Assembly: GCA_963738085.1 (NCBI GenBank)
Contig: CAVTVC010000009.1
Location: 62,454 to 126,453, forward strand
Direction of reading: 5' to 3'
Length of the DNA: 64,000 nt
From: an uncultured Acidobacteriaceae bacterium
GTDB lineage: Bacteria; Acidobacteriota; Terriglobia; Terriglobales; Acidobacteriaceae
Positions within the stretch are counted from its first letter, which is position 1; each line of letters opens with the position of its first letter. The position numbers and the translations under genes are program-made. Shown piece by piece: positions 26,163 through 57,925 of this stretch. The notes beneath the pieces were generated by a model that was not told the DNA's origin, ran no database searches, and saw nothing but the letters and a program-made list of their open reading frames with translations.

Positions 26163-26216
26163 GGTGATTCAATGGTAGTGCAACGGGTGCGGAGTGCGGT
26201 CGTGCATCGCACGATG

Positions 26217-36715: not shown

Positions 36716-36803
36716 GCGTCTGTTTTAGCACAGGGGTCCATACTTGCTTGCAATTTTCTAGAGAGTCGAATGCCTTCGGCTCGAAACAGCGCGCAAAGAC
36801 AGG

Positions 36804-37142: not shown

Positions 37143-37146
37143 GGGT

Positions 37147-37839
37147 CTAGTTTAGCTGGTCGAGAGCGGCGAGGACGTCGGTGGGTTCGGGGCGGACACG
37201 GGAGTCGGCGTGGGCTTCGGAAAATATGACGGTGCCTTTGCTGTCGATGACGAAGACGCCGGGGAGCGGGAGACGCCAGCTTGCTTCGGTGGCGTTGTGG
37301 TAGCCGAGGCCAGCGTTGTTGAAGGGGATGTTGATGAGGATGGATTGGAAGTAGCGGCGGTGTTCCGACGGGATGGTGTAGGCGATGCCGAATTTTTCGG
37401 CGATGGTGGCGCCGGGGTCGGAGAGCAGCGGATACGGTAGCGCGTGTTGCTGGAGGGTGAAGTTGTTCTGGCGGGTGGTCTGGGGGGAGATGGCGATGAA
37501 GAGTGAACCGCGCTCGCGGAGTTGCGGGTGGAGGTTGCGCCAGGCTTCCAGTTCGGTGATGCAGTAGGGGTCCCAGCGGCCGCGGAAGAAGTTGATGACG
37601 AGTGGGCCGAGGGCGAGGAGGTCGGCCGAACTGACTGGTTTGTGGGTGCGTGCGTCTTCGAGGGTGAATGAGGGAGCCTCCGCTCCGGTCTTCAGGATGT
37701 GATTCTCAATACCGGTGTTGAAGAGGTCCGCGGTCGCCTTTTCGGAGATGGCGAGACGCTCGGGCTGGACGAGTTTTCGGGTCTTGGCAGTGATGGCGTC
37801 CAACTGGTCCTGCAATGGTTCTTTTGTACTCACAGACAT
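37147..37839 (-). CDS. Peroxiredoxin-like (AhpC/TSA, PRX-like2) protein
   Basis: APSFTL, FFRGRWDPYC, IAISPQ, LLSDPG and LPLPGVFVID. Confidence 0.82.
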   Translation of the reverse strand: MSVSTKEPLQDQLDAITAKTRKLVQPERLAISEKATADLFNTGIENHILKTGAEAPSFTLEDARTHKPVSSADLLALGPLVINFFRGRWDPYCITELEAWRNLHPQLRERGSLFIAISPQTTRQNNFTLQQHALPYPLLSDPGATIAEKFGIAYTIPSEHRRYFQSILINIPFNNAGLGYHNATEASWRLPLPGVFVIDSKGTVIFSEAHADSRVRPEPTDVLAALDQLN

Positions 37840-37841
37840 AG

Positions 37842-37900
37842 CCCCCCTCCTACCTTAAATGTGTCAAAGTATTCGAACGAAAGACTTTAAGCCTGGACTT
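37842..37900 (+). repeat. Repeat family 3 (CCCCTCC...AAAGT-N-GACTTT...TGGACT)
   Basis: Aligns by eye with 43759-43816 and has an internal AAAGT/ACTTT hairpin. Confidence 0.65.
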
Positions 37901-37929
37901 CCGGCGCAATACTGCTGAGTTAAATATCG

Positions 37930-37951
37930 CAGTCCGGCCGGAGCCGGACTG
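37930..37951. terminator. Hairpin CAGTCCGGC-CGGA-GCCGGACTG
   Basis: Perfect 9-bp stem in the intergenic region. Confidence 0.45.
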
Positions 37952-38075
37952 TTTGATGGCTGAGTTAATTATATCGGGGGTATCAAGAGAATCGATGGGT
38001 TGATTGTGGATAAAGCTTGCGTCACATCAACGCGGACTGCTCTAACAGCTGCTGATCCCCCTCCACACATTTTCG

Positions 38076-39005
38076 CTACATGGAGCCTGCCATTTTCATC
38101 GATGCGTCGTGGCATTGGGTGGCCGGTGCTGTGGATTTTTTAGCAGCTACGGTCTTGTTGTGGGTTGCATTGCTGGCCATTGGAGCGGGCTTCATCTCTT
38201 TGACGAGTGTGACGATGCGTATGAAGGCCTGGTCGCGTGCGGCCTTGTTGGCGGGGCTGGCGTCTGGCGCTTCGCCTGCGCGCATGAAGCCGTGGCCGGC
38301 TCCGTCGTAGCTGACGGGATCATACTTTTTGCCTGCTGCTTTCATGGCGTCGGTGGTGGCAGGAACGGTCGCTCCGACGCGGGCGTCGTTGCCGGCGTAG
38401 AAGCCATAGACCGGAGCGGTGATGGTGGTTACATCAGCGGGGCCAGTGCCATAGAAGACGAAGGCAGCGGAGAGGTCTTTGCGGTGAGCGGCGAAGGCGA
38501 AGGATTTGCTGCCGCCCCAGCAGAATCCGGCGACCGCGATCTTGCCGTTAGCTGCGGGGATTGTTTTGGCGTAGTCGGCTGCCGCATCGAGGTCTGCGTT
38601 GACAACGGCTGCATCGAGGCCGGAGACGGCTTTGGTCCTATCGTCCCCCGTGCTGGGGAAGGCGTCGGTGCCGCCGCCGTTGGGACCGAAGCCAGTGAGG
38701 AGGTCGGGTGCGACGACGATGAAGCCTTGTCCGGCTAGTTCGTCGGCCATCTCTTTGGCCCAGTCGCTGAGACCGAAGATTTCGTGGATAAGGATGATAA
38801 CGGGTGCCTTGGTTTTGACCTCGGGGTAGACGACGAAGGCTTGCACGGTGCGCTCTCCGTGCTTGAGGGGGACGTACTCGTGGTGGCGAGGCGAGGCATC
38901 GAGGCGCGCTTTGGCCCAATCCTGCGCGTGGATGGGAGCGGCGGCAAGAGGGAGAAGCAGAGCGGCGGCGAGAAGTTTGAGGGTGCTGGGCATTGATATC
39001 GTCAT
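38076..39005 (-). CDS. Secreted dienelactone hydrolase family protein
   Basis: IHEIFGL, GFCWGG nucleophile elbow, FYAGNDARV and GAGHGFMR; signal peptide. Confidence 0.9.
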   Translation of the reverse strand: MTISMPSTLKLLAAALLLPLAAAPIHAQDWAKARLDASPRHHEYVPLKHGERTVQAFVVYPEVKTKAPVIILIHEIFGLSDWAKEMADELAGQGFIVVAPDLLTGFGPNGGGTDAFPSTGDDRTKAVSGLDAAVVNADLDAAADYAKTIPAANGKIAVAGFCWGGSKSFAFAAHRKDLSAAFVFYGTGPADVTTITAPVYGFYAGNDARVGATVPATTDAMKAAGKKYDPVSYDGAGHGFMRAGEAPDASPANKAARDQAFIRIVTLVKEMKPAPMASNATHNKTVAAKKSTAPATQCHDASMKMAGSM

Positions 39006-39137
39006 GGGGGGAGTCTATTACCGAGCGCGCGAGGGGGACAAGACGTGGGTGCAATTTTACGTGGAGAATGTGGAGTGCATCGTATTGAGGAGAAGTTTGG
39101 GCAGCAGTTATGCGATGAACAAGTTGAAGGGGTTGGC

Positions 39138-40151
39138 ATGAAAGGAATGGGTCGGCTGTGGTTGAGAATTGTTGTGCCGTTGGTGCTGGTTGCTGCGTTC
39201 GCTCATGCGCAGGAGCCCGTTGATACAGATCACGACGGGATGAGTGATATGCAGGAGCAGGCGTTGCTGGAGCGGTTTGTGCCGCGATTTCAGGTGAGCA
39301 GGACAGACTGTGCGGTGAAGCCCGCACTGTTCGAAGAGGGAGTAGTGAAGCCGACGGTGAAAGACCGGGATGGGACGATCTACGGGCAAGTAACTCCGCG
39401 CGAGGGAATCAAGGGTGGGAGCGCGGTGGTGGAGATTCACTTCTACGATTTGTGGAGCCTGGATTGTGGGCGGATGGGGCATCCACTGGATGCGGAGCAT
39501 GTGTCGGTACTGCTGCGTGCGACGACGATGGCTAGCCCGGCGGAGGATTGGAGGGCGGTGTATTGGTTTGCCGCGGCGCATGAGGGGACTATGTGCGATG
39601 CGAGTGAAATGGCTGTGGCGAAGGTTGTGGATGCGGAGACGCAGGGTGCCACTGTCTGGCTTTCTGCGGGTAAGCATGGTGCGTTCCTGAACGAGACGAT
39701 GTGCACGCAAGGATGTGGCGGCGACCGGTGCACAGAGATGACTCCGCTGATAGTGGCCCGGATTGTCAATCTGGGGGAGCCGGGTTCTGCGATGCATGGG
39801 GCGATATGGGTGGGGTCGCCGATGTGGCCGCTGGCGCTGAAGATGCGGAGTGATTTTTCGGCGGAGGTGATTGCGAAGCTGGAGCAGGGAGGAGACGTTC
39901 CGGTGGAGGTGAATGGAGCGCATGGATCGGTGAAGGGAACGATCTATGTGGCGAACTCGGTTGCGAATGGTGTGGGAACGAGTGGGACGAATACCGGCTC
40001 TGCGCTGAATGCCGCCGATGTAAAGACGGAGAATGCTCTGACCAAGAGTGCCAACGCTACGGGTGGGGCGCTCAAGAAGTCGGCAAAGGCGGTAGGGCGA
40101 TTTTTACATTTGACCGAAGATCCGAAGATCGTTGAGGGCGCACCGCGCTGA
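39138..40151 (+). CDS. Secreted Cys-rich hypothetical protein (possible NPP1/NLP-like fold)
   Basis: Signal peptide, DTDHDG, GHPLDAE and SAGKHG motifs. Start uncertain (39138 or 39147). Confidence 0.7.
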   Translation: MKGMGRLWLRIVVPLVLVAAFAHAQEPVDTDHDGMSDMQEQALLERFVPRFQVSRTDCAVKPALFEEGVVKPTVKDRDGTIYGQVTPREGIKGGSAVVEIHFYDLWSLDCGRMGHPLDAEHVSVLLRATTMASPAEDWRAVYWFAAAHEGTMCDASEMAVAKVVDAETQGATVWLSAGKHGAFLNETMCTQGCGGDRCTEMTPLIVARIVNLGEPGSAMHGAIWVGSPMWPLALKMRSDFSAEVIAKLEQGGDVPVEVNGAHGSVKGTIYVANSVANGVGTSGTNTGSALNAADVKTENALTKSANATGGALKKSAKAVGRFLHLTEDPKIVEGAPR

Positions 40152-40171
40152 GAGGCTTTTATACTGCGCCA

Positions 40172-40723
40172 ATGAGCCAATTTCATCTGCGAGTAGCGAC
40201 GGAGGAGGATGTGTCTGGTATTCGGAGGTTGATTGATGCTTCTGTGCGGGGTTTGCAGGCGAAGGATTATTCCGCTGCGCAGATTGAAGGGGCTCTGGCT
40301 ACGGTGTTTACGGTGGATAGCCAGTTGGTTGCTGATGGAACTTATTTTGTGGCGTTCACTGAGAGTGGGGAGTTGGCTGGGTGTGGCGGGTGGAGTTTTC
40401 GGAAGACGCTTTACGGCGGGGATCACCAGATGGAGAGGATTGTTCTGGAGCGGATGAATCCGATGGTGGATGCGGCTAAGGTTCGGGCGATCTTTGTGCA
40501 TCCGAAGTTTGCGAGGATGGGGTTGGGGAGTTTGATTTTATCGGCTGCTGAAAATGCTGCTTCGGAGCAAGGATTTTCGCGGTTCGAGATGGGGAGTACG
40601 TTGACCGGAGTGGCGCTCTACACGTTGAAGGGGTATCGGGAGGTGAGTAGGGTTTTAGTTCCGGTGGGTGGTGGGGAGGAGATTGAGGTGGTGAGGATGG
40701 TGAAGGAGAGTGAACATTCTTGA
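40172..40723 (+). CDS. GNAT family N-acetyltransferase
   Basis: AGCGGWS, VRAIFVHPKFARMGLG motif A and LYTLKGY. Confidence 0.88.
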   Translation: MSQFHLRVATEEDVSGIRRLIDASVRGLQAKDYSAAQIEGALATVFTVDSQLVADGTYFVAFTESGELAGCGGWSFRKTLYGGDHQMERIVLERMNPMVDAAKVRAIFVHPKFARMGLGSLILSAAENAASEQGFSRFEMGSTLTGVALYTLKGYREVSRVLVPVGGGEEIEVVRMVKESEHS

Positions 40724-40790
40724 TGGTGTGCAAGCCACCCGCTCCGGAAGGGTTACTCTGTTTGTTTTTCCAGTCGCAAGAATAACTACA

Positions 40791-40846
40791 AATCCTTCGA
40801 CTTCGCGGCGCGCAAAGTGCGCGAGTACTTAACTCAGGATGACAAT
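40791..40846 (+). repeat. Palindromic repeat family 2 (TCCTTCGACT...CTCAGGATGACAAT)
   Basis: Shares both arms and the CGCAAAG..GCGCGAG core with 55992-56047. Confidence 0.8.
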
Positions 40847-40864
40847 CAGATACTGGTTCGGAGC

Positions 40865-42433
40865 CTATGATGTGGTGAGTTTGAGAGTGATGCCGATGTC
40901 GGCTGTGGGTGGGCGGCTGGAGGGAAGAGTGACGTTGAGGGCAGTTGGGTCTTGAGCGAACTTCAGGTTTTGACCGTGGCCTAACATTGTGGCACTGGTG
41001 ATTTTTGGTGGGTTCTGCGGGCTGCTGGTGCCCAGGGACGGGATGACGGCTGTGCCTTCCGGCCAGCCTTGAATGAAGGCGTAGATGGTTGAGCCTTTTG
41101 CGGTGAAGCGGATGTCGGTGGCCGAGAGATCGGGCTTTTTGCCTTCGTTGGGGTCGAACTCCTGGCCGTTTTTGGCGATGACTACTTTAGTTGATGGGCC
41201 TTCGCCGTAGATCTTCCAGGGGCGGGTGGCGTAGATGCCTTCGCCGTTGACGGCCATCCATGCAGTGATGCCGGCGAGTACCTCGCGTTCGGCGAAGTCG
41301 AGTTCGCCGCTGTTGGGGAGTGGGAAGTTGAGGAGCAGGTTGCCGTTTTTGCTGACGATGTCGACGAGAAGGTCGATAACTTTTTTCGGAGTTTTGTAGG
41401 CAACGCCGCGCTTGTAGTGCCAGTCTCCGATGCATGTGTCGGTCTGCCATGGGGCAGGAGAGATGCCGTCGAGGACGCCGCGTTCGCGATCGAGTGCGCA
41501 GGTGCCGATGGCGCAGTTCTCGGCGGTCTTGCTGAAGTAGACGGACTCGACTTTGCCGTTGTGTTTTGCTGCGCTGACGTTGTAGATCTCGGCGACGGTG
41601 GAGTAACCGTACTCGTCGAAGGGGATGCCGCCGTCGGTGTAGAGGAGATCGGGCTGGTACTGGTCGATGAGGTCTTTGATGCGGCGAAAATACTGGAGCT
41701 TCCAACGGTCTGGCGCGATGCGGCCCATGGCCTCTGCGGTCCTGGCGAAGTTGGTTGGCTGGCCAGTGTAGTCGTGGTAGAGATCGGCGAAAGCGGGATC
41801 GATGCCGTCGTAGGGAACGCCTGCGAATGGGCCCTTTGTGTCGCTGGTGTGCGCGGGGGCCAGCCAGTCGTAGGAGTTGGAGAGATGTTCGCTGACGCCG
41901 AAGCGGAGGCCGCGCTTGCGGGCGGCGGTGGCCCATTCGCCGACGACGTCGCGTTTGGGGCCGGATGCGGCAGCGTTCCAGCGCGGTTGATATTTGGAGT
42001 TCCACATGTCGAAGTTGTCGTGGTGGACGCCCATGGAGAAGAAGTATTTTGCGCCGGCTTTGACATAGAGATCCATGAGGTGGTCAGGATCCCAACTTGC
42101 GGCTTTGAATTTGGGGATGAGGTCTTTGTAGCCGACCCTGGAGGGGTGGCCGTAGGTTTCAACGTGGTAGTTGTACTGGCCTGAGCCCTGGATGTACATG
42201 TTGCGGGCGTACCAGTCGCCGTATTCGACGCTGGATTGCGGTCCCCAGTGGGCCCAGATACCAAACTTGGCATCGTTGAACCAGGCGGGAAAGCGGTAGG
42301 CCTGCAGGGATGCAGGTGTTCCGGTGAAAGGGCCGGGAGCGATGGTGATCTGGTTTTGCTGGGCGTAAGCAGATCTTAGGGCGGGCGCTGCGGTTGCGAG
42401 GAGAGCAAGCGCCCGGCGGCGAGTGATTTTCAT
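40865..42433 (-). CDS. Alpha-L-fucosidase (GH29) with Tat signal
   Basis: TRRRALAL Tat-like motif, AKFGIWAHWG, HHDNFDMWNS and PDLLYTDG. Confidence 0.9.
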   Translation of the reverse strand: MKITRRRALALLATAAPALRSAYAQQNQITIAPGPFTGTPASLQAYRFPAWFNDAKFGIWAHWGPQSSVEYGDWYARNMYIQGSGQYNYHVETYGHPSRVGYKDLIPKFKAASWDPDHLMDLYVKAGAKYFFSMGVHHDNFDMWNSKYQPRWNAAASGPKRDVVGEWATAARKRGLRFGVSEHLSNSYDWLAPAHTSDTKGPFAGVPYDGIDPAFADLYHDYTGQPTNFARTAEAMGRIAPDRWKLQYFRRIKDLIDQYQPDLLYTDGGIPFDEYGYSTVAEIYNVSAAKHNGKVESVYFSKTAENCAIGTCALDRERGVLDGISPAPWQTDTCIGDWHYKRGVAYKTPKKVIDLLVDIVSKNGNLLLNFPLPNSGELDFAEREVLAGITAWMAVNGEGIYATRPWKIYGEGPSTKVVIAKNGQEFDPNEGKKPDLSATDIRFTAKGSTIYAFIQGWPEGTAVIPSLGTSSPQNPPKITSATMLGHGQNLKFAQDPTALNVTLPSSRPPTADIGITLKLTTS

Positions 42434-42542
42434 TCGAGCCACTCTAGTGATTATGGTGGCTCGATGCAAGTTAGGAGTTAATGTTCGATTGCTGGATATC
42501 CCACTCTTCGCGGGCGCGAAGAATGGGATATCGATGGCATAT

Positions 42543-42686
42543 TTAGACGACTTTGAGCAGAAGAAGAATGAGGACGATGAGGAGGATGAGGGAAATGCCG
42601 CCACCGCCGTAGTAGCCGAGCCCTGGTCCCATGCGGTATCCACCGAAGCCAAACACGAGTATCAAGACGATCAAAAGAATGAGCAT
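42543..42686 (-). CDS. 47-aa DUF3309-like small membrane protein (not in ORF track)
   Basis: Manual translation MLILLIVLILVFGFGGYRMGPGLGYYGGGGISLILLIVLILLLLKVV with a GGAG RBS upstream. Confidence 0.8.
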   Translation of the reverse strand: MLILLIVLILVFGFGGYRMGPGLGYYGGGGISLILLIVLILLLLKVV

Positions 42687-42791
42687 TTTTTATTTCTCCG
42701 TTCGGCGAAGATTCGCCACTGGAGGTGTGATGCAAATTCTGTTTGGAGTGCGAAAAGATTTGTGTTTCGGAGGGTTGCCTGATCGCGGAGT

Positions 42792-43229
42792 TTATTTTTG
42801 GAAGAGGTCGCTCTCGGCTTGGCGGCGTTGGTGGAGGCCGTCGATGACGATACCTTTGGCATGGTCCCATAGGAGAAACTGCTGGGCGGCAGATGCGAAG
42901 TTGCCAGCGTTGACCTCGCGCAGCAGAGTTGAGGAGAGCAGAGCGGCGCAACCGAGATTGAAGACGAAGTCTACTAAGGCGTCGAACTGGTTCTGGTTGA
43001 TTGGGGCGGTGACGGCTCGATTGACGCATGCGACAGAGGCGGCGATGTCGCTGTGAAGGAGGTGGTCGGCCTGATCCTGGGTGATGATGAGGCCTGCGTG
43101 GATGGTGGGGCCGGTGTGTCCGTAGCCTATCGTCCAGACACCGACCTGATCCTGGTAGGCGTTTAGTTTGAGGCCTTCAAATTTTTGGGTCAGGGCGAGG
43201 CCCGTGCTGCTGTAGGTAAAGTTGGCCAT
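42792..43229 (-). CDS. GH24 phage-type lysozyme
   Basis: E-x8-D-x5-T triad (FEGLKLNAYQDQVGVWTIGYGHT), QFDALVDFVFNLG and GLHQRRQAE. Confidence 0.92.
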   Translation of the reverse strand: MANFTYSSTGLALTQKFEGLKLNAYQDQVGVWTIGYGHTGPTIHAGLIITQDQADHLLHSDIAASVACVNRAVTAPINQNQFDALVDFVFNLGCAALLSSTLLREVNAGNFASAAQQFLLWDHAKGIVIDGLHQRRQAESDLFQK

Positions 43230-43351
43230 TTGTTGCTCCGCGTGGCTGGGATTTCTCTATGGTATGGGTGGAGGGCGCGGGATTTCAATGCCGCGTATCT
43301 GGTCTTCGCGCACGAACACCTGCTTTACAGGCTTGGATGTGGAGTGCTGTT

Positions 43352-43729
43352 CTATTTTTCTTTTTCGAGTTCGACGACCATGACTTCCATTGGCTTGTCG
43401 CCTGCGTTGACGTCGGAGTGGAGGGTGTTGGGGGGCATGGCGGGGAGCCAGTAGGCTTTGCCGGTCTCCCATACGTGGGGTTCGACGTTGCCGGCGGGGT
43501 CGACGATGTTCATGGTGCCGCCGGTGAGGGCGATGATGACGCGGGGGTGATCGTGGTGGTGCATGGCGAGAGGCTGGTGCGGGAGCACGACGGTCTTCCA
43601 GACTTTGACTGCTTCGTTTTCGAATTGCGGCAACCGTTGTGTCTGTTGGGACTTCTGTTCGACCTGTGAGATGAGGACGGTGGTGCTGAGCGCGGCAGCT
43701 GCGAGGGCTGCGCGGATAGCGTGCTTCAT
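43352..43729 (-). CDS. Secreted cupin domain protein
   Basis: FENEAVKV, MHHHDHPRV and LHSDVN cupin motifs; AGGAG RBS. Confidence 0.8.
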   Translation of the reverse strand: MKHAIRAALAAAALSTTVLISQVEQKSQQTQRLPQFENEAVKVWKTVVLPHQPLAMHHHDHPRVIIALTGGTMNIVDPAGNVEPHVWETGKAYWLPAMPPNTLHSDVNAGDKPMEVMVVELEKEK

Positions 43730-43758
43730 GGGTGTCTCCTTTTGGCGTGAGTGTAGCA

Positions 43759-43816
43759 CCCCCTCCCCCGTCAAAAGTGTGCAAAGTCTTCGAAGGAGGG
43801 ACTTTAGGCTTGGACT
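43759..43816 (+). repeat. Repeat family 3, second copy
   Basis: CCCCCTCCCCCGTCAAAAGTGTGCAAAGTCTTCGAAGGAGGGACTTTAGGCTTGGACT. Confidence 0.65.
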
Positions 43817-43902
43817 AGCGGGTGAACTGCGGAGGGGCACAACGTTTTCGTTGGCATGAAGCCCTTTTTGGGAGTTCGCTTATGTCAAGTTTTAGGGCTG
43901 CG

Positions 43903-44286
43903 TCAGCGAAGCGGTTTGCCGATCTCCCAGTGGTGGCCGAAGGGGTCGAGGAGGCGGCCTATGCGCCAGGCGTGTTCGATCCGGATGGGGCAGACGATGG
44001 TGGCTCCGGCGGCGATGGCTCGGTCGAAGGCTGCTTCGGGGTCTTCGGTGGTGAGGATCATTCGGACGGTGCCACCGTTGAGGGTTTCGGGGCTGAAGTT
44101 CTGGTGCTCGGGGGATTCGTCGGCGACCCAGAAGCTGTAGCTGTTGATGGAGAGATTGCAGACTACGGCGCCGGATGGGTCTTCGTGGCGGAAGAGCTCT
44201 TCGGCTCCAAAGGCGGATTTGTAGAAGTCGACGGCTTTGGCTCCGTTGCGGACGGAGAGGAAAGCGGCGAGGGTGGTGGAGGTCAT
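43903..44286 (-). CDS. VOC/glyoxalase (PhnB-like) protein
   Basis: AVDFYKSAFGA and WRIGRLLDPFGHHW. Confidence 0.88.
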   Translation of the reverse strand: MTSTTLAAFLSVRNGAKAVDFYKSAFGAEELFRHEDPSGAVVCNLSINSYSFWVADESPEHQNFSPETLNGGTVRMILTTEDPEAAFDRAIAAGATIVCPIRIEHAWRIGRLLDPFGHHWEIGKPLR

Positions 44287-44350
44287 GGAGACTCCTTTCG
44301 GATGGGTGGGAGTAGTTTACGGTTGGGAGCGACGACAGTTCGCGCCTTCG

Positions 44351-44395
44351 CGCGAATTCCCACTCATGCGATGAGACTGCATGAATGGGGCACCC
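44351..44395 (+). repeat. REP-like palindrome, family 1 variant
   Basis: CGCGAATT-CCCACTCATGC...GCATGAATGGG-GCACCC: same flanks as family 1 with a different stem. Confidence 0.75.
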
Positions 44396-44518
44396 ATGGT
44401 CTCGGCTACATTTCATGTGCGGGCCACGCAGCCATGATGAATCAGGAATCGGGGGTGTGCTATGCTGTGTCGCATCCAGCAGCCCAAAATCGGAATCCTC
44501 GTTAAGAAGGAATCAGCC

Positions 44519-45055
44519 ATGAACCGCAAAAGCAAGCTCACGATTGCGAGAGCCACGGCAGCGCTCGTCCTCCTCGGCGCCTCGGCCGTTTACCCGCAGG
44601 AAAAGTACTCCCTGATATCGCCGGGCGGGATTGCGTTCTCCGACTTCAAGGGATATGAGGACTGGTCGGTGGTCTCTTCGGCCCGGACCGACGAAGTGCT
44701 CAAGGTGATCGTCGCCAATCCAATCATGATCAAGGCGTTCAAGGCGGGCATTCCGGGTAACGGCCAGCCTTTCCCGGATGGTGCCAAGATCGCGAAGCTC
44801 CAGTGGAAGCCGAAGAAGAGCACGGAGGCCCCTTTCGTCGTGGATGTGCCAGACATCTTCAAGCAGGCTTTCGTTATGGAAAAGGACAGCAAGAGGTTTC
44901 TGAAAGACGACGGCGGATGGGGATACGCGGTGTTCAACTATGAAGCCGCATCGGGCAAGTTCACGGCGGATTCCAGTCCCGTAAATTGCGGGACCACGTG
45001 CCATAAGGCCGTGAAGGCGAAGGACTACATCTTCCACCCGTACCAGAAGCGTTGA
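44519..45055 (+). CDS. Cytochrome P460/c'-beta family periplasmic heme protein
   Basis: Signal peptide, FPDGAKIAK, GGWGYAVF and C-terminal CGTTCH followed by KDYIF. Confidence 0.82.
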   Translation: MNRKSKLTIARATAALVLLGASAVYPQEKYSLISPGGIAFSDFKGYEDWSVVSSARTDEVLKVIVANPIMIKAFKAGIPGNGQPFPDGAKIAKLQWKPKKSTEAPFVVDVPDIFKQAFVMEKDSKRFLKDDGGWGYAVFNYEAASGKFTADSSPVNCGTTCHKAVKAKDYIFHPYQKR

Positions 45056-45056
45056 A

Positions 45057-45094
45057 GCGGATCTGCCCGGCGTCGAGTACCCGGGCAGATCCGC
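45057..45094. terminator. Perfect 14-bp inverted repeat between convergent genes
   Basis: GCGGATCTGCCCGG-N10-CCGGGCAGATCCGC. Confidence 0.7.
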
Positions 45095-45112
45095 CGAATG
45101 GTGCGTGTCGGT

Positions 45113-45853
45113 TCAGGCGTTGGTTCCACCATCAACGGTGAGATTGGCCCCTGTGATGTACGAGGACTCGGGGCTGGCGACGAAGGACACCAGGGCGGCG
45201 ACCTCGTCTGGTGTACCGTAGCGTTTGAGTGCTGTAACGGCTATTTGGGGAGCTGCCCAGTCGCCTGCGGCGGGATTGAGGTCGGTGTCGATAGGGCCGG
45301 GCTGGACGTTGTTGACGGTGATGCCGCGGCTGCCGACCTCCCGGGACAAGCCCTGGGTGAACATCTTTACCGCTCCCTTGGTGGCTCCATAGGCTGCCAG
45401 TCCGGGAGTCATGTTTTTCTCCCCGACGCAGGAGCCAATCATGATGATGCGGCCGTTGTCGTTCATGTTCTTGAGAGCCGCCTGGGTCGCGACCATTACG
45501 CCGCGGAAGTTGAGGTCGATCATGTGGTCCATCTCCTCGAGCGTCGTCTGCTCGAATGGCTTGGGGATGGCGGTGCCTGCGTTATTTACGAGGACGTCCA
45601 ACTTGCCCAAAGTCGCGACGATTTTTTCGACTGCGGCATTGATCGCTTTGGGATCGGCGGCGTCCGCCTGGATGGCGAGTGCCTTTCCGCCGCTGCCTTC
45701 GATTGCTTTGACCACGGCGGAGGCTGCGTTGGCGTCCTTCGCGTAGGTGATGGCCACGCTCGCTCCATCTGTGGCCAGACGCTTTGCGATCGCGGCGCCG
45801 ATTCCTCGGGAACCGCCGGTAACAAGTGCCACTTTATTGGCTAGCTTCGACAT
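45113..45853 (-). CDS. SDR oxidoreductase (3-oxoacyl-ACP reductase-like)
   Basis: TGGSRGIG, VNNAG, YGATK and VQPGPIDTD. Confidence 0.92.
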   Translation of the reverse strand: MSKLANKVALVTGGSRGIGAAIAKRLATDGASVAITYAKDANAASAVVKAIEGSGGKALAIQADAADPKAINAAVEKIVATLGKLDVLVNNAGTAIPKPFEQTTLEEMDHMIDLNFRGVMVATQAALKNMNDNGRIIMIGSCVGEKNMTPGLAAYGATKGAVKMFTQGLSREVGSRGITVNNVQPGPIDTDLNPAAGDWAAPQIAVTALKRYGTPDEVAALVSFVASPESSYITGANLTVDGGTNA

Positions 45854-46041
45854 ACACTCTCCTTTGGTTTTCTGTAATTTTTTTAGGGCGCTGATTTTCT
45901 AGCTGATGAGGATGCTGCTGGGAGCTTTCGGTTCATATCTGATGCGCTGCTCGTATGGGTGGATGCGTCAGTTTGAGGGAGACAAGCTATTGGATAAGAA
46001 ATGCGGAGATCGTAGGGAGGAGAAAGCGGTTCGCCGCTTTG

Positions 46042-46118
46042 CGCGAAGACCCACATCTGAGAATCGAGATATGGGACACCCGACTTCTGTGGCTCAATTT
46101 AGATATGGGCCACCCGGC
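46042..46118 (+). repeat. Long REP doublet (family 1)
   Basis: Full hairpin plus TGTGGCTCAATTTAGATATGGGCCACCCG tail. Near-identical direct repeat of 48124-48202. Confidence 0.88.
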
Positions 46119-46120
46119 AT

Positions 46121-46786
46121 TCAGGAGGAGAGACCCTTTTCGACCATAAGGATGAGGCATTCGCTGAGGGTTGAGATCTCGGCGGGCGTAGCGGTGTGGA
46201 GCGGGCCGTCGATGACTAGGAAGGCGAGGCCATGGACGGCGGACCAGGCGAGATACTCGGCGCGGGGGCGGCGGTTGCGGGGGAGGAGGCGGTGCAGGAC
46301 CATCAGGTCGAGGGCGTGGCCGAGGAGTTGGAAGGGGTTGAGGCCGCTGGCGCCGGTCTTTGCCTTGTCGTCGTCGCCGATGACTGGCTGTGTGTTCGAG
46401 AAGGCGGTGCGGAAGAGGCCGGGCTGGTGGAGCGCGAAGGTGAGGTAGCCGATGCCGACGGCACGGAGGCGGGCGCGGGCGAGCGCGGCACCGCGGCGAC
46501 GGGGCGGGATGGCGGCGATCTCGGCCTCGATGGTGCGGGCGAGCTGCGAGAGGGCGTGGGCGCGGACGGCGGCGAGCAGCTCGGCGTGGCTGGAGAAGTG
46601 GCGGTAGGCGGCGTTGGGGACGACGCCGGCGCGGCGGGTGGCCTCGCGGAGAACGACGGCTGCGGGGCCACCTGTGCGGGCGAGCTCGACTCCGGCGGCC
46701 AGCAGGGTGCGTGGGAGATCGCCGTGGCGGAAGGTGGTCCTTGCAGGGGTGGGTGGCGCGGGAGTCTTCTTCGGCTTCGTCATCAT
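46121..46786 (-). CDS. TetR/AcrR family regulator (WHG-type C-terminal domain)
   Basis: FRHGDL, VLREATRRAGVVPNAAYRHF HTH and WSAVHG. Confidence 0.9.
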   Translation of the reverse strand: MMTKPKKTPAPPTPARTTFRHGDLPRTLLAAGVELARTGGPAAVVLREATRRAGVVPNAAYRHFSSHAELLAAVRAHALSQLARTIEAEIAAIPPRRRGAALARARLRAVGIGYLTFALHQPGLFRTAFSNTQPVIGDDDKAKTGASGLNPFQLLGHALDLMVLHRLLPRNRRPRAEYLAWSAVHGLAFLVIDGPLHTATPAEISTLSECLILMVEKGLSS

Positions 46787-46790
46787 TGCT

Positions 46791-46846
46791 TGTGGACAGT
46801 GTACAGATTGTTCGCATAGCATCGCTGCATGTGAACAATGTCCACA
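46791..46846. promoter_or_regulatory. Two imperfect palindromic operators in the TetR/hypothetical divergent promoter
   Basis: TGTGGACAGTGTACAGA (46791-46807) and TGTGAACAATGTCCACA (46830-46846); 14/17 identity to each other's reverse complement. Confidence 0.65.
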
Positions 46847-46890
46847 TTTTGGACGACCGAAGCAAGTGAAGATGCTTTTTCAAGGAGGCT

Positions 46891-47607
46891 ATGCAGATGG
46901 CGAATCGGATGGTTGGAGCGATCATGTCTGGCGTGGTGTATGGAACGATCCTTCTCGGTGTGGCTGGGGTGGGGTGGGCGCAGGGAGCGAAGGCGCCGTA
47001 TCCTGCGATGGCCCCGGTGGAGCAGTACCGCGTGGCGAGCGTGGCGGAGGAGATTGCGTTGGCGCGTAGTGCGGCAAATGAGGCTGTGAGCCGCGATGCG
47101 GAGGTACTGGTGCTCGGAGGGCACGGCTACGAGACGGAGGCGAAGGGGACGAACGGCTTCGTCTGCCTGGTCGTGCGGTCGTGGGCGACCGGCTTCGATG
47201 ACCCGGAGTTCTGGAACCCGAAGGCACGTGCGCCGCACTGCTTCAACGCCGTCGCGGCGCGCTCGGTGTTGCCGGCGTACCTGAAGCGGACGGAGTGGGT
47301 GCTCGCCGGGTTGACGAAGGAGCAGGTGAAGGAGCGCATGAAGGAGGCGGTGGCGAAGAAGGTCTTCACGGCGCCAGAGGAGGGATCGATGTGCTACATG
47401 CTGTCGAAGCAGGGCTACCTGAACGATCACGATGGCCATTGGCATCCGCACCTGATGTTCTTCCTTCCCCCGACGGAGGCGGCGAGCTGGGGCGCGAATC
47501 TCAAGGGCTCGCCGGTCTTCGCCGCGCCGGGAGACGTCGAGCCAGTGACGACTTTCTTTGTTCCGGTGACGAAGTGGTCGGATGGGACGATGGAGGAGAT
47601 GAAGTGA
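46891..47607 (+). CDS. Secreted hypothetical protein with Cys/His motifs
   Basis: AGGAGG RBS, signal peptide, APHCFN, CYML and HWHPHLMF. Confidence 0.78.
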   Translation: MQMANRMVGAIMSGVVYGTILLGVAGVGWAQGAKAPYPAMAPVEQYRVASVAEEIALARSAANEAVSRDAEVLVLGGHGYETEAKGTNGFVCLVVRSWATGFDDPEFWNPKARAPHCFNAVAARSVLPAYLKRTEWVLAGLTKEQVKERMKEAVAKKVFTAPEEGSMCYMLSKQGYLNDHDGHWHPHLMFFLPPTEAASWGANLKGSPVFAAPGDVEPVTTFFVPVTKWSDGTMEEMK

Positions 47608-47627
47608 CGATTTGAGTTTGTTGCGGG

Positions 47628-48091
47628 TTAGGATTTCATAATCAGGAATGGGGATGGTTCGTTCAGGAGATAGTGGCGATAGGTGGACAAAGGCCAGTCT
47701 TCCGTGTTTTTGACGAGGCCGCGGGTGACTGGGGTTGCGGTGCATGTACTCCAGCTTTTCGACGCGCTGTTGTGGGTGAAGACATTGAAGTCGTAGTAGC
47801 GGGGTTGCCAGAAAGGGCGTTCGGCGAGGCGTCTGGAGGCGGAGATTTTCAGAGCCTGTAGAGCTTTTGAGAGAGGGGCTTCGGGAGGTTCGCTCATGAG
47901 GATGTGCACGTGCTCTGGCATGACGACGTAGCCGAGGATTTCGAATTGATAATGGCTTCGTGTGCGTTCGAGAGAGTCGAGGAAGATGTCTCTTGAGTTT
48001 GCGTGTTGAGGTAAGGTTTGCGGTTGTGACAACTAAAGGTGATGAAATGATCGTCGCCTTCTTAGTGGTATCGCTTGAGCCCAAACGGCAT
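47628..48091 (-). mobile_element. REP-associated tyrosine (Y1 HUH) transposase RAYT, inactivated (TAA at codon 10 plus about three frameshifts)
   Basis: MPFGLKRYH*...HFITFSCH, YVVMPEHVHIL (HUH), FWQPRYYD, KLEYMHRNP (catalytic Tyr) and W.LSTY; adjacent REP palindromes. Confidence 0.88.
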
Positions 48092-48123
48092 GGGTTGATT
48101 TTAGAGCATCGGGTTCGCGCGTG

Positions 48124-48202
48124 GCGCGAATGCCCACATCTCAGAATCGAGATGTGGGGCACCCAGTTTTTGTGGCTTCAATTTAGATGTGGGCCACCCG
48201 CC
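48124..48202 (+). repeat. Long REP doublet (family 1) directly upstream of RAYT
   Basis: Perfect stem CCCACATCTC-AGAATC-GAGATGTGGG (48133-48158), GCACCC and the shared tail. Confidence 0.9.
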
Positions 48203-48670
48203 CTAGTTCTTGACGGTCATCGCGTCGGAGTCCACGGCTTTCTTGCCGGTGATGCCTTCCAGAGCCATGAGAATTCCGCGGTAGTCGTTCTTATCGCACT
48301 GCATGACGAAACCGCCCTTCTGATCGCCATTGGCATAGGTGATGCCAATGAAGTGTTTCTTGGACTTGCTCAAGGCCATGAGGGCCCCAATTCCGAAGGA
48401 GACTACGGCAAGCCCGATGGCGGCACCGACCCGCCGGTGGACATCCTGTCCGTAAGAAATCTCGGTAATTGCGGAAGCGGGAACGGTGACTAGATCCTTC
48501 TTGTTTTTAGCCAAGCGCACCTGCGTCTGTTCGATTGCAAACTCGGCGGAAGAGCCGGATTTGACGGATTGAATCGATCCGCCGTCGTAGGCGACCTTGT
48601 AGCTGTTATCCGCCGCAAAGGCGACCGTGGGAACTAATAGGCAGAGAATTGCTGCAATAAAACTTTTCAA
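48203..48670 (-). CDS. Secreted/membrane hypothetical protein
   Basis: TTG start with AAGGA RBS, signal peptide, internal Gly-rich hydrophobic hairpin. Confidence 0.72.
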   Translation of the reverse strand: MKSFIAAILCLLVPTVAFAADNSYKVAYDGGSIQSVKSGSSAEFAIEQTQVRLAKNKKDLVTVPASAITEISYGQDVHRRVGAAIGLAVVSFGIGALMALSKSKKHFIGITYANGDQKGGFVMQCDKNDYRGILMALEGITGKKAVDSDAMTVKN

Positions 48671-48736
48671 TTTAAATCCTTTGTAGTGGAATGTCAGAAT
48701 TATGCTGCTATCGCGCATCTAGCAATCCAAGACTCC

Positions 48737-48776
48737 GCGCGAATGCCCACATCTCAAAATCGAGATATGGTGCACC
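48737..48776 (+). repeat. REP-like palindrome (family 1)
   Basis: GCGCGAATGCCCACATCTCAAAATCGAGATATGGTGCACC. Confidence 0.85.
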
Positions 48777-48957
48777 TGATTCTGTGGGCTCGGATACCGA
48801 AGTAGGACTTCGGGGAATCCATTCTCTAATTCTAAGAAGTAATAAACTTTTCGTCATTGCGTCAAAGCAATCTAACTCAGGCCACAGACGCGTTTGAAGC
48901 CCCTAGACGAGAGATGGCCAGATTTTTAGTGTGCGATTGCAGGAGCATTTTTGATCT

Positions 48958-50343
<1,386 letters not shown>

Positions 50344-50454
50344 ACTGTCTTAAGTTTAGCAGCGGGTGGGCGAGTCAGCGGTTTTGCAGTTGTTTTGGGT
50401 GGGAGTGCTGTGAAGTGGCTTGGCTTGGCGTGCTGAATCGCGTAGAACGGAACG

Positions 50455-52099
50455 ATGAAGATATTGACGGCAGAGGAGATGGGGACGGTTGATCGACGGA
50501 CGGTCGAGGAGTTCGGCGTGCCGCTGGACGACCTGATGGAACGGGCGGGTTCGGCGGTAGCTGAGTTTTGCCTGCGACGGTATCCGAGGGTGGGTCGGGC
50601 CACTGTGTTGTGCGGGAGAGGGAATAACGGCGGAGACGGGTTCGTTGCTGCTCGTGTGCTGGCACGCACCGGAATGATGGTGCGTGTGGTTTTGCTGGGA
50701 AGAATGGATGAGGTCAAGGGGGAGGCCGCGAAGGCTTTGAAACAAATGCGGGAGGAGGCTTCCTCGGCGATTGTGGACGAAGTGGTGGGTGAGACTGGGC
50801 TCGAAGGGATTCGCGATGCTGTGGGTGATGCGGAGGTGTTGATCGATGCAGTGACGGGGACGGGGTTCAAGCCCCCGCTGCGGGGAGTTGCGGTTTTGTT
50901 GCGGGAGATGGTGGAGAGGCTTGAGGTGCCGGTGGTGGCGGTGGATCTTCCGTCGGGGTGGGATGCGAATTCAATGGAGCAGACGGCTGCGGGATCGTTT
51001 CGGGCGGATGCGGTGGTGACGTTTACGGCTCCGAAGCTGGCGCATGTTTTTGGGCATCTGACGCGGAATGAGAGGACAGGTGGGACGTTTGGGCCGGTGG
51101 TGGTGGCGGCGATCGGGTCTCCGGAGGAGGCGGTGACGTCGGCTAGCGGGTTGACGTGGACCGGTGGGTCAAAGTGGTTGGCGGAGAAGGCTCGGAATGT
51201 GAATTCGAATAAGGGCAGGTTTGGGCATGTTCTGGTGGTTGGGGGGAGTTACGGGAAGGGGGGAGCTCCGGCGATGGCTTCGCTGGCTTGTCTTCGGAGC
51301 GGGGCGGGGCTGGTGACGGCGGCAGTGCCAAAGAGCATTGTGGATACGGTGGCTCGGATTACGCCGGAGCTGATGATGGTTCCGCTGGCCGAGGGGAACA
51401 AAGGCGCGGTGTCGTTCAAGAGTCTGGATGGCGCGAAGCTGGATGCTCTGATGGAGAAGATTACGGTGGCGGCGGTGGGGCCAGGGCTGTCGACGGAGGG
51501 GGATGCTCCCGCGTTTGCACGGCAGATTGTTGAGAAGGCGACGGTGCCCGTGGTGATTGACGCTGATGCGCTGAATGCGTTTGAGGGGAAGGCTCATTTG
51601 TTGGATGGGGCTGGGAGGGTAATGGTTTTGACGCCGCATCCTGGGGAGATGGCTCGCCTGGCCGGGTTGACGGTGAAGGAGGTTGAGGCAGATAGGGTGG
51701 GGTTGGCGCGGCGGTTTGCGACGGAGCACAACTTGACGCTGGTGTTGAAGGGGTGGCGGACGCTGGTGGCGCATCCGGATGGAGCGATTGCGGTGAATAC
51801 GACGTGGGAATCCGGCGATGGCTAAGGGCGGGAGCGGGGATATTCTGACGGGAATTGTTGCGGCAATGCTGGCGCAGTTTCCCGGTGATGTGGAGCGGGC
51901 GGTGGAGACGGCGGTTTATCTGCATGGGCTCGCTGGGGACTTTGCGGCAACGGTGATGGATGAGCATACGGTACTTGCAACCGATACGGTTACACATCTT
52001 TCGGATGCTTTCCGGTACAGGGTGATGGATGAGCATGGGTTGACCTGGATCTGTGGGCTTCGAGCGGATGAAAGAGAAAGGTTCAAGACGCGGAGTGAG
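50455..52099 (+). CDS. nnr: Bifunctional NAD(P)H-hydrate epimerase/dehydratase; +1 frameshift near 51803, 3' end approximate
   Basis: CGRGNNGGDG, DAVTGTG, VDLPSG, NKGRFGHV, VIDADAL, LTPHPGEM and AKGGSGDILTG. Confidence 0.9.
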
Positions 52100-57901: not shown

Positions 57902-57925
57902 GGAGAGAGTATCGCAGACGCAGTT

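What the first reader, a model, noticed from the sequence alone, without database searches (positions are those of the whole stretch)
46042..48202. About 2-kb TetR + secreted protein + RAYT module bracketed by ~77-bp direct repeats
46042-46118 and 48124-48202 are near-identical long REP doublets in direct orientation. Each begins within 3 bp of the stop codon of the minus-strand gene to its right. Between them lie a self-contained regulatory unit (TetR, two operators, divergent secreted protein) and the RAYT. A further REP at 48737 closes the next single-gene unit (48203..48670). Inference: REP-delimited cargo cassettes that could be gained or lost by HUH-mediated transfer or by repeat recombination.
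Basis: inference. Interest (0 to 1): 0.62.

Follow-up and report, generated by a model that had tools for sequence, protein, structure and literature searches.

The report
Old REP repeats beside dead RAYT
The two "direct repeats" are ordinary, old copies of a short hairpin repeat (REP) common across Acidobacteriaceae, lying next to a broken copy of its transposase in a gene-shuffling hotspot downstream of ffh; they are not the ends of a mobile 2-kb cassette.

Summary
The repeats are real. At 46026-46118 and 48111-48202 lie two same-strand copies of a three-part REP element: hairpin A, hairpin B and a half-site. Each ends 0-2 nt from the stop codon of a minus-strand gene.

They are only 79.6% identical, and their longest shared exact word is 11 nt. 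The 48111 copy is closer to its counterparts in other species (82-86%) than to the 46026 copy.

Direct orientation carries no information here. In 131 of 137 REP cores from 118 loci of many Acidobacteriaceae, the same REP strand lies on the G-rich strand.

The "RAYT" is a pseudogene with one nonsense codon and three frameshifts. Its orthologues in two relatives are intact.

The locus is a hypervariable island between ffh and a peroxiredoxin-like gene; these two genes are adjacent in more distant relatives. Nine related genomes carry different genes between and beside positionally conserved REPs: TetR in 3, an intact RAYT in 2 plus one stub, and the lipoprotein gene next to ffh in 1. The 2-kb block is therefore not a unit of inheritance.

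Verdict: this is a decaying REP/RAYT locus in a variable island. Cargo turnover is real and several boundaries fall at REP ends. Mobilisation by the HUH enzyme or by repeat recombination is unsupported.

The parts
46026..46118 (+). REP doublet downstream of TetR. It comprises hairpin A (TTCGCCGC-TTT-GCGCGAA), hairpin B (CCCACATCTG..GAGATATGGG) and the half-site TTTAGATATGGGCCACCCG.
   Evidence: nhmmer E 6.8e-15; fold. A REP occupies the same position in L200 (degenerate), L202 (hairpin A remnant), L285 and L286.
48111..48202 (+). REP doublet lying 19 nt upstream of the RAYT start and abutting the stop codon of ORF 48203-48670. It is the best-preserved copy: the hairpin B stem is fully paired, 10 bp.
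   Evidence: E 6.5e-19; DNA fold z -3.6 on the + strand and -4.0 on the - strand. Orthologous copies in L200, L201 and L202 are 82-86% identical.
48731..48790 (+). Single REP (only the 3' arm of hairpin A, plus a decayed hairpin B) between ORF 48203-48670 and ffh.
   Evidence: conserved in L279.
44336..44425 (+). Variant REP doublet between the VOC and P460 genes. It has the same flanks and hairpin A, but hairpin B has a different, compensating stem (CCCACTCATGC..GCATGAATGGG).
   Evidence: the same variant occurs in L199, L279 and L284.
47628..48091 (-). RAYT (REP-associated tyrosine transposase) pseudogene. Lesions: TAA at 48062-48064, -1 after 48002, -1 after 47769 and +1 at 47734. The HUH motif (HVH) is retained; the Tyr motif YMHRNP is out of frame.
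   Evidence: The intact orthologue in L202 scores 112.7 bits on NCBIfam NF047646 (cut-off 80). The lesion sites are covered without a difference by metagenome contigs.
46121..46789 (-). TetR-family regulator gene, 71% G+C against 59% for the window. It is probably a horizontally acquired single gene inserted between the old REP and the promoter of the secreted-protein gene.
   Evidence: It is 70-72% identical at the DNA level to TetR genes of Streptomyces, Embleya and Ralstonia, which pair with other partner genes. It is present only in the window, L200 and L202.
46791..46846 (.). Two operator-like imperfect palindromes (GTGGACAGTGTACA and GTGAACAATGTCCAC) in the divergent promoter region. The second is also present in genomes that lack TetR.
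46897..47607 (+). Gene for a secreted protein of unknown function (conserved GHWHPH motif). It is a constant resident of the island in all nine related genomes that were examined through it.
   Evidence: no solved relative and no fold match.
48203..48670 (-). Gene for a conserved 155-aa exported or lipoprotein-like protein with no assigned family. The copy next to ffh is a derived placement shared only with L279.
37840..48957 (.). Hypervariable accessory-gene island between the peroxiredoxin-like gene and ffh.

Best explanation
The window comes from an Edaphobacter/Tunturiibacter-like acidobacterium; the closest ffh found, 95.5% identical at the protein level, is in T. gelidoferens.

The two repeats are independent, old members of a REP family found across Acidobacteriaceae. 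The unit is about 90 nt and has three parts:
- hairpin A (TTCGCGC-N3/4-GCGCGAA);
- hairpin B (CCCACATCTC-AGAATC-GAGATGTGGG, followed by GCACCC);
- a downstream half-copy of the 3' arm of hairpin B.

The copies sit in intergenic spacers of a hypervariable island downstream of ffh. That island also holds the lineage's RAYT locus. In this genome the RAYT has decayed to a pseudogene and has lost its 3'-flanking REP.

REPs of this family lie almost always with the same strand on the G-rich strand. By the usual reading of GC skew (my inference) this is the leading strand, which is the lagging-strand template. This is what a strand-specific, single-strand HUH mechanism or strand-specific retention would produce. 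Any two neighbouring copies are therefore direct repeats.

REPs also tend to sit just past the stop codon of a gene on the opposite strand. There they would form 3'-UTR hairpins (inferred, not shown).

Gene content in the island changes gene by gene: TetR was acquired horizontally, the lipoprotein gene was moved or copied in, and toxin-antitoxin pairs appear in relatives. The REPs stay as positional landmarks.

Shown: the repeat family, the strand rule, the pseudogene, the positional conservation of the REPs and the variability of the genes. Inferred: how REPs spread, their role in RNA, and how the cargo genes enter.
For: - Repeat family: 5 core matches in the window against 0 expected. The exact 32-nt core occurs in more than 118 loci of Edaphobacter, Granulicella, Terriglobus, Silvibacterium, Occallatibacter, Terracidiphilus and others. 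The three-part 'doublet' form recurs in many genomes. Compensating stem variants exist.
- Strand rule: 131 of 137 cores, in 113 of 118 loci, lie on the G-rich strand.
- Position near stop codons: an opposite-strand ORF stop lies within 50 nt after the core in 34 of 114 REPs, against 58 of 590 random sites.
- Age: the doublets are 79.6% identical to each other, while the 48111 copy is 82-86% identical to its orthologues. REPs occupy the same positions in L200, L202, L285 and L286 (left of TetR or of the secreted-protein gene) and in L200, L201 and L202 (5' of RAYT).
- RAYT: four lesions relative to intact orthologues. The orthologue passes the NCBIfam RAYT equivalog. It is the only RAYT homologue in the window.
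- Island: ffh and the peroxiredoxin-like gene are adjacent in L003-L005, L008, L009 and L011. Each close relative carries different cargo.
- Mosaic composition: third-codon-position GC skew is +0.6 to +0.79 in core genes. It is -0.01 in P460, +0.31 in the lipoprotein gene and +0.39 in SDR. TetR is 71% G+C.
- TetR origin: 70-72% DNA identity to actinobacterial and Ralstonia TetR genes.
Against: - Several block boundaries fall exactly at, or inside, REPs: 48202/48203 against L202; the TetR stop at the end of a REP; truncated REPs in L200, L202, L279 and L286. REPs may therefore take a causal part in the rearrangements rather than being bystanders.
- REPs are concentrated near the RAYT: 4 of the 7 in the window lie within 4.5 kb.
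- A RAYT elsewhere in the genome cannot be excluded from a 64-kb window.
- The gene-end statistic rests on crude ORF calling.
- The relatives are different species (about 88-91% DNA identity in ffh), so recent events within the strain are not visible.
Confidence: 0.7

Rival explanations
1. One reading: the segment between the two doublets is a REP-bounded cargo cassette. It would be gained or lost as a unit, either by RAYT (HUH) excision and insertion or by recombination between its direct terminal repeats.
For: The same repeat architecture stands at both ends, in direct orientation and flush with gene ends. A RAYT-derived gene lies inside. L202 shows RAYT, the REP doublet and ffh without the lipoprotein unit. 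In L201 a ParE/antitoxin pair is bracketed by two direct REPs.
Against: The block is not co-inherited. L202 has 1.4 kb of other genes between the secreted-protein gene and RAYT. L200 keeps only a RAYT stub. L199, L201 and L285-L287 lack TetR. L199, L279 and L285-L287 lack RAYT. The repeats are 79.6% identical with an 11-nt longest shared word, and the 48111 copy is closer to its cross-species counterparts than to 46026. Orientation is uninformative. The RAYT is dead. The L202 gap does not have the structure of a REP-by-REP deletion.
Confidence: 0.05
2. REPs are the cause of the island's fluidity. Their hairpins would be break or entry points, through RAYT nicking, hairpin processing at the replication fork, or insertion of single-stranded DNA next to the 3' foot of a REP. 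Single genes would then be inserted or deleted next to REPs while the REPs persist.
For: Boundaries at or within REPs include: the lipoprotein unit starting at the last base of the doublet; TetR lying exactly between the REP and the second operator-like palindrome; in L199 the secreted-protein gene directly after hairpin B of the variant REP, where the window has that variant REP followed by P460; and truncated REPs at junctions in L200, L202, L279 and L286. REPs are reported as insertion targets for IS elements (cited in the background of PMC3733652).
Against: Other boundaries show no REP, namely the fucosidase indel at 40707-42548 and the 3' end of the secreted-protein gene at 47607. Almost every spacer here holds a REP, and REPs tend to sit next to stop codons, so coincidence with gene-scale breakpoints is expected. 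Cargo genes have no consistent orientation relative to the REP: the toxin-antitoxin pair in L201 is co-oriented, while TetR and the lipoprotein gene are opposed. There is no target duplication or other signature.
Confidence: 0.2
3. The REPs are kept mainly as functional RNA elements. As 3'-UTR hairpins they would stabilise or terminate the TetR and lipoprotein transcripts, and their placement at stop codons would reflect selection for that role.
For: The doublets abut the stop codons of TetR and of ORF 48203-48670. Enrichment after stop codons holds across the family. The hairpins are stable on both strands. Stem changes are compensating. An exact-match metatranscriptome contig spans 45980-46130. 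REPs downstream of coding regions are the published norm (PMC3733652).
Against: The hairpins are not followed by a T-run and none scores as an intrinsic terminator. There is no Rfam family. The strand rule follows the G-rich strand rather than the direction of the neighbouring gene, and some copies lie in divergent promoter regions (44336). The RNA evidence is a single low-depth contig that could be DNA carry-over.
Confidence: 0.3

Closest known systems
REP elements with their RAYT gene ('REPtron'; Nunvar 2010 PMC2817692; Bertels & Rainey 2011 PMC3116915; Di Nocera 2013 PMC3733652)
   Same: Short hairpin-forming extragenic repeats occur in many copies. They cluster around and flank a small Y1/HUH transposase gene, which is the only such gene found in this window. 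They lie mostly downstream of genes. The intact orthologue passes the NCBIfam RAYT equivalog.
   Different: There is no GTAG or CGTC tag at the foot of the hairpin (read from the sequence). The unit has three parts, with a direct half-site instead of the inverted REP pair of a REPIN. In the closest relatives the flanking REPs are direct, whereas more distant RAYT loci of the family have inverted flanks. The 32-nt core is conserved exactly across genera. Here the RAYT is a pseudogene.
Acidobacterial 'TIRYT' tyrosine transposases (Terriglobus saanensis, Granulicella mallensis, Acidobacterium capsulatum, Koribacter versatilis; Di Nocera 2013, PMC3733652)
   Same: The phylum is the same, and the transposases form a sharply defined RAYT-like group flanked by non-GTAG repeats. 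At least one of these repeats forms a repeated family.
   Different: That paper does not report the three-part element, its strand rule or its link to an island next to ffh, as far as I read it. I did not compare the sequences directly with the proteins it lists.
IS200/IS605 single-strand transposition (IS608, ISDra2; summarised in Quentin 2018, PMC6006769)
   Same: The HUH/Y1 enzyme family, recognition of hairpins in single-stranded DNA and coupling to the lagging-strand template all predict the one-strand orientation seen here.
   Different: No transposition is demonstrated here. REPs are non-autonomous, and the local enzyme gene is dead.
Integron gene-cassette arrays
   Same: Single genes are separated by structured repeats that could fold as single strands, next to a recombinase-type gene, in a locus with high gene turnover.
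   Different: There is no IntI integrase or attI. The orientation of gene relative to repeat is not consistent. The repeats are positionally stable rather than moving with the genes. The resemblance is only an analogy.

Membership tests
REP (repetitive extragenic palindrome) element | Short imperfect palindrome that can form a stem-loop | tested here: met
   Hairpins A and B are predicted on both strands (for the 48111 copy, z -3.6 and -4.0). Stem variants compensate: TTCGCGC/GCGCGAA against TCGTGC/GCACGA, and CCCACATCTC/GAGATGTGGG against CCCACTCATGC/GCATGAATGGG.
REP (repetitive extragenic palindrome) element | Many dispersed, mostly extragenic copies per genome | tested here: met
   There are 6-7 copies in 64 kb against 0 expected. 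The exact core occurs in more than 118 loci of other genomes, several per genome. A whole-genome count for this organism could not be made.
REP (repetitive extragenic palindrome) element | Cognate RAYT gene flanked by the repeats | tested here: met
   In L201 and L202, REPs lie 15-44 nt from both ends of an intact RAYT. In the window the 5' REP lies 19 nt from the start codon.
REP (repetitive extragenic palindrome) element | Conserved GTAG (or CGTC) tetranucleotide at one foot of the hairpin (the tagged super-families of Di Nocera 2013) | tested here: not met
   Neither GTAG/CTAC nor CGTC/GACG is conserved at either foot in the alignments. The element belongs to the untagged kinds.
REPIN (inverted REP pair as the mobile unit) | Two REPs in inverted orientation separated by a short spacer | tested here: not met
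   The second part of the doublet is a direct half-copy of the 3' arm of hairpin B.
RAYT (NCBIfam NF047646; Pfam PF01797 Y1_Tnp) | Intact ORF with the HUH motif and the catalytic Tyr motif | tested here: not met
   The window copy keeps HVH. It has a stop codon at codon 10 and three frameshifts, and YMHRNP is out of frame. Only the central fragment hits PF01797.
RAYT (NCBIfam NF047646; Pfam PF01797 Y1_Tnp) | Family-level sequence membership of the orthologous gene | tested here: met
   The L202 orthologue (83% identical to the read-through window protein) scores 112.7 bits against a cut-off of 80 on REP_Tyr_transpos.
Repeat-bounded mobile cassette or composite element | Terminal repeats nearly identical to each other (recent common origin) | tested here: not met
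   They are 79.6% identical, and the 48111 copy is closer to its cross-species orthologues.
Repeat-bounded mobile cassette or composite element | The whole unit is present or absent together; empty sites retain one repeat | tested here: not met
   No relative has the unit, or an empty SDR-REP-lipoprotein site. The components vary independently.
Repeat-bounded mobile cassette or composite element | Excision or circle junctions in sequencing data | tested here: inconclusive
   Only short metagenome unitigs are available. The one 46116>48112 joint has a 26-nt side within REP sequence and cannot be told apart from other REP loci.
TetR-family regulator | N-terminal HTH domain plus TetR C-terminal domain | tested here: met
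   PF00440 at 32.4 bits and PF13305 at 50.8 bits.
Integron cassette array | IntI integrase with attI, and an attC at the 3' end of each co-oriented cassette | tested here: not met
   There is no integrase in the island. The orientation of REP relative to gene is inconsistent.

The most novel reading that the evidence does not exclude
In this clade the spacer just 3' of a REP may be a preferred entry point for single genes or gene pairs: TetR, the 155-aa lipoprotein gene, and ParE-type toxin-antitoxin pairs. If so, the RAYT/REP locus downstream of ffh would work as a single-strand, HUH-dependent gene-capture platform. Functionally it would resemble an integron, with the REPs as fixed 'slots'.
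Probability: 0.06. Interest if true: 0.75.

Novelty: new member of a known kind. Interest (0 to 1): 0.3.

Why it matters
As it stands, the finding removes a tempting misreading. Direct REP repeats around a gene block do not mark a mobile cassette when the whole REP family is locked to one replication strand.

It also documents three things:
- an Acidobacteriaceae-wide REP family with an unusually conserved core and a very strong strand rule;
- a RAYT caught in decay;
- a gene-turnover hotspot downstream of ffh.

If REP ends were shown to be real entry points for genes, that would link RAYT/REP systems to gene acquisition. No such link is established at present.

Tried and rejected
- Rfam, at gathering thresholds over the whole window and at permissive E-values over 44.2-49.0 kb: no family covers the repeats.
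- Intrinsic-terminator scan: no REP hairpin is followed by a T-run, and hits are no more frequent than in shuffles.
- Exact-protein look-ups for the window's secreted protein and Ffh: not on record.
- tblastx of the whole window against loci: too noisy, apart from revealing the ffh/peroxiredoxin adjacency.
- My first fuzzy-regex REP scan missed known copies. I replaced it with an nhmmer profile.
- Metagenome contigs laid on the locus: they are short unitigs and the joints lie inside REP sequence, so they say nothing about excision. They did confirm the pseudogene lesions.
- Metatranscriptome contigs: too sparse to define transcript ends.
- Function of the secreted protein: no PDB sequence relative. 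The AlphaFold model is of medium quality (pLDDT 64, pTM 0.67). There is no Foldseek match with E below 0.5, only weak proteasome-beta/Ntn-like hits at probability 0.09 or less.
- Plasmid and phage collections: only the TetR gene matches, and only plasmids or megaplasmids; phages give nothing.
- An integron-like reading was considered and rejected for lack of an integrase and of consistent cassette polarity.
Full report
**1. The observation**

The region holds two long repeats on the + strand. One is at 46026-46118 and the other at 48111-48202. Each has three parts:
- hairpin A (TTCGCGC-N3/4-GCGCGAA);
- hairpin B (CCCACATCTC-AGAATC-GAGATGTGGG, followed by GCACCC);
- about 15 nt further on, a half-copy of the 3' arm of hairpin B (TTTAGATGTGGGCCACCCGCC).

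The hairpin B core occurs 5 times in the window against 0 in 100 shuffles. An nhmmer profile finds copies at 26195, 44336 (a variant with a compensating stem), 46026, 48111, 48734 and 57185, plus a weak one at 56794. All are on the + strand.

The 46026 copy ends 2 nt before the TetR stop codon. The 48111 copy abuts the stop codon of ORF 48203-48670.

The two copies are 79.6% identical over 93 nt, and their longest shared exact word is 11 nt.

**2. The genes**

- SDR, 45113-45853 (-).
- TetR, 46121-46789 (-), with Pfam TetR_N and TetR_C_33.
- A divergent gene at 46897-47607 (+) for a protein with a signal-peptide-like N terminus and no family.
- A Y1_Tnp fragment at 47628-48091 (-).
- A 155-aa exported or lipoprotein-like ORF at 48203-48670 (-).
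- ffh, 48958-50343 (-).

The Y1_Tnp gene is a pseudogene. Aligned with intact 154-aa orthologues from two relatives (L201, L202), it shows four lesions:
- CAA>TAA at codon 10 (48062-48064);
- a 1-nt deletion after 48002;
- a 1-nt deletion after 47769;
- a 1-nt insertion at 47734. Together with the deletion after 47769, this puts the catalytic YMHRNP motif out of frame.

Logan contigs from soil metagenomes that carry this strain cover all four sites without a difference. The lesions are therefore not errors of one assembly.

The L202 orthologue scores 112.7 bits (cut-off 80) on the NCBIfam equivalog "REP-associated tyrosine transposase". No other RAYT homologue lies in the window.

**3. The repeat family**

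The full three-part "doublet" recurs in many of them, sometimes in tandem arrays.

Hairpin A varies by compensating changes (TTCGCGC/GCGCGAA, TCGTGC/GCACGA). Hairpin B has a second stem type with the same flanks.

There is no Rfam family and no GTAG or CGTC tag. Di Nocera et al. 2013 (PMC3733652) already noted a distinct group of acidobacterial tyrosine transposases flanked by non-GTAG repeats.

**4. Why the direct orientation carries no information**

The window has an extreme strand asymmetry. GC skew is +0.29 overall, and +0.6 to +0.79 at third codon positions whatever the coding strand.

Across 118 loci from other genomes, the "+" form of the REP lies on the G-rich strand in 131 of 137 cases. 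This one-strand rule is what single-strand HUH elements coupled to the lagging-strand template would give (background in PMC6006769). It makes any two neighbouring REPs direct repeats.

REPs of the family are also enriched just before the stop codon of an opposite-strand ORF. This holds for 34 of 114 REPs within 50 nt, against 58 of 590 random sites. The "flush with the stop codon" feature is therefore a family habit too.

**5. The locus is a hypervariable island**

In more distant Acidobacteriaceae, ffh is followed directly (22-800 bp) by a peroxiredoxin-like gene. In the window that gene lies 11 kb away, at 37147-37839. Between the two the window carries DLH, a hypothetical gene, GNAT, fucosidase, a phage-type lysozyme, cupin, VOC, P460, SDR, TetR, the secreted-protein gene, the RAYT pseudogene and the lipoprotein gene.

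Close relatives (ffh protein 91-95.5% identical) have the same frame with different contents:

| Locus | Order of genes in the island |
|---|---|
| L202 | DLH, hyp, GNAT / globin and two methyltransferases / TetR, secreted / membrane protein / REP, intact RAYT, REP doublet / ffh |
| L200 | cupin / degenerate REP / TetR, secreted / RAYT stub plus REP doublet / three other genes / ffh |
| L199 | VOC / variant REP / secreted gene (no TetR) / P460 / other / ffh |
| L201 | secreted gene / REP / antitoxin and ParE / REP doublet / intact RAYT / REP doublet |
| L279 | ffh / REP / lipoprotein gene / REP plus variant REP / SnoaL, Phd-ParE and others |
| L285 (E. bradus), L286 (T. gelidoferens), L287 (T. 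lichenicola) | Prx, DLH ... secreted gene ... ffh, with no TetR, RAYT or lipoprotein gene there |
| L001 | MNT/HEPN and Phd-like genes in the same gap |

**6. What this says about the "cassette"**

The block between the two repeats is never inherited as a unit.

The secreted-protein gene is a constant resident of the island.

TetR is present in 3 of the 9 relatives examined through that gene, counting the window separately. It is 71% G+C against 59% for the window. It is 70-72% identical at the DNA level to TetR genes of Streptomyces, Embleya and Ralstonia, where it pairs with other genes. It fills exactly the interval between an old REP and the second promoter palindrome, and that palindrome also exists in TetR-less genomes. 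All this points to a horizontally acquired single gene.

The RAYT with its 5' REP doublet is positionally orthologous in the window, L200 (stub), L201 and L202. A REP to the left of TetR or of the secreted-protein gene is seen in the window, L200, L202 (hairpin A remnant), L285 and L286. So the repeats stay in place while the genes between them change. That is the opposite of what a repeat-bounded mobile unit predicts.

The 48111 copy is more like its orthologues (82-86%) than like 46026 (79.6%).

**7. The lipoprotein unit**

L202 has RAYT, the REP doublet and 12 nt before the end of ffh. The window and L279 instead have the 155-aa gene, a single REP and about 150 bp inserted exactly after the doublet.

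However, the missing segment extends about 150 bp beyond the second REP, so it is not a REP-by-REP deletion.

The gene belongs to a very large conserved family (6774 homologues). Its usual place in close relatives is upstream of a TPR operon (L280, L281, L284). The copy next to ffh is therefore a derived translocation or duplication. Its third-position skew (+0.31 against about +0.6 or more) fits a recent move.

**8. Are REPs bystanders or actors?**

Several boundaries lie at or inside REPs, and truncated REPs sit at some junctions. Others do not: the fucosidase indel and the 3' end of the secreted-protein gene show no REP.

Nearly every spacer here has a REP, and REPs tend to sit next to stop codons. 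Coincidence with gene-scale breakpoints is therefore expected. I give REP-promoted rearrangement about 0.2, and an integron-like capture platform about 0.06.

More distant RAYT loci of the family show the classical inverted flanking REPs, while L201 and L202 have direct ones. The window has lost the 3' flank altogether.

**9. Dead ends**

These were the terminator scan, Rfam, metagenome joints, the metatranscriptome, and structure prediction and fold search for the secreted protein.

**10. Verdict**

This is an ordinary, if well-preserved, REP/RAYT locus in decay, embedded in a gene-turnover hotspot downstream of ffh. The cassette and mobilisation interpretation is not supported as stated, although the cargo turnover is real.

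Noticed in passing
window 1-64000; per-gene values for 34232-51825: The strand asymmetry is extreme. GC skew is +0.29 over the whole window and +0.6 to +0.79 at third codon positions, regardless of coding strand. Loci from relatives have a median absolute skew of 0.18.
   Followed up: partly
window 44462-45055 (P460); also 45113-45853, 48203-48670, 43352-43840: The P460 gene has a third-position skew of about 0 (-0.01). SDR, the lipoprotein gene, the cupin gene and the secreted-protein gene are intermediate (+0.31 to +0.42) against about +0.6 or more for core genes. These genes look recently acquired, moved or inverted.
   Followed up: partly
window 37147-37839 and 48958-50343; L003-L011: ffh and a peroxiredoxin-like gene are immediate neighbours in more distant Acidobacteriaceae. 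In the Edaphobacter/Tunturiibacter clade the gap has grown into an island of 7-18 kb whose content differs in every species.
   Followed up: yes
window 46121-46789: The TetR gene is 71% G+C and 70-72% identical at the DNA level to TetR genes on Streptomyces/Embleya replicons and Ralstonia megaplasmids. There it pairs with unrelated neighbours (DUF4440, DHFR-like). This suggests transfer between phyla.
   Followed up: partly
window 57185-57244 within ORF 56048-57901 (-): A well-preserved REP lies inside a 617-aa ORF that has a weak PTPS_related membrane-protein hit. It is either an intragenic REP or an over-long ORF; the alternative ORF 57258-57929 would end 14 nt after the REP.
   Followed up: no
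L201 6704-7280; L279 11200-11797; L001 11994-13171: Toxin-antitoxin pairs (antitoxin+ParE, PhdYeFM+ParE, MNT/HEPN) occupy the same island in three relatives. In L201 the pair is bracketed by a REP and a REP doublet.
   Followed up: partly
L296, L301, L304, L306, L308, L309, L313, L314, L323, L324, L338 against L288/L289: More distant RAYT loci of the family have arrays of REPs upstream in one orientation and a single inverted REP 50-120 nt downstream. The two closest orthologues have direct flanks.
   Followed up: partly
window 48203-48670; L280, L281, L284: The 155-aa exported protein belongs to a very large and highly conserved Acidobacteriaceae family (6774 hits, length fixed at 155 aa). 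It has no Pfam or NCBIfam model and normally lies upstream of a TPR-protein operon.
   Followed up: partly
window 46897-47607; L214, L216, L219: The secreted-protein family (invariant W and H within a conserved GHWHPH motif) is widespread in soil Acidobacteriota and Proteobacteria, sometimes as 2-3 tandem paralogues. It has no solved relative and no fold match.
   Followed up: partly
window 42792-43229: A stand-alone phage-type lysozyme gene (PF00959, E 5.6e-47) lies in the island. No other phage genes were noticed nearby.
   Followed up: no
L128 (Edaphobacter MAG), about 6613-6720: A REP core directly interrupts the 5' part of a RAYT-like reading frame (…GHDHFITLSGC followed by the REP). This looks like another decayed RAYT in a relative (read by eye).
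   Followed up: no
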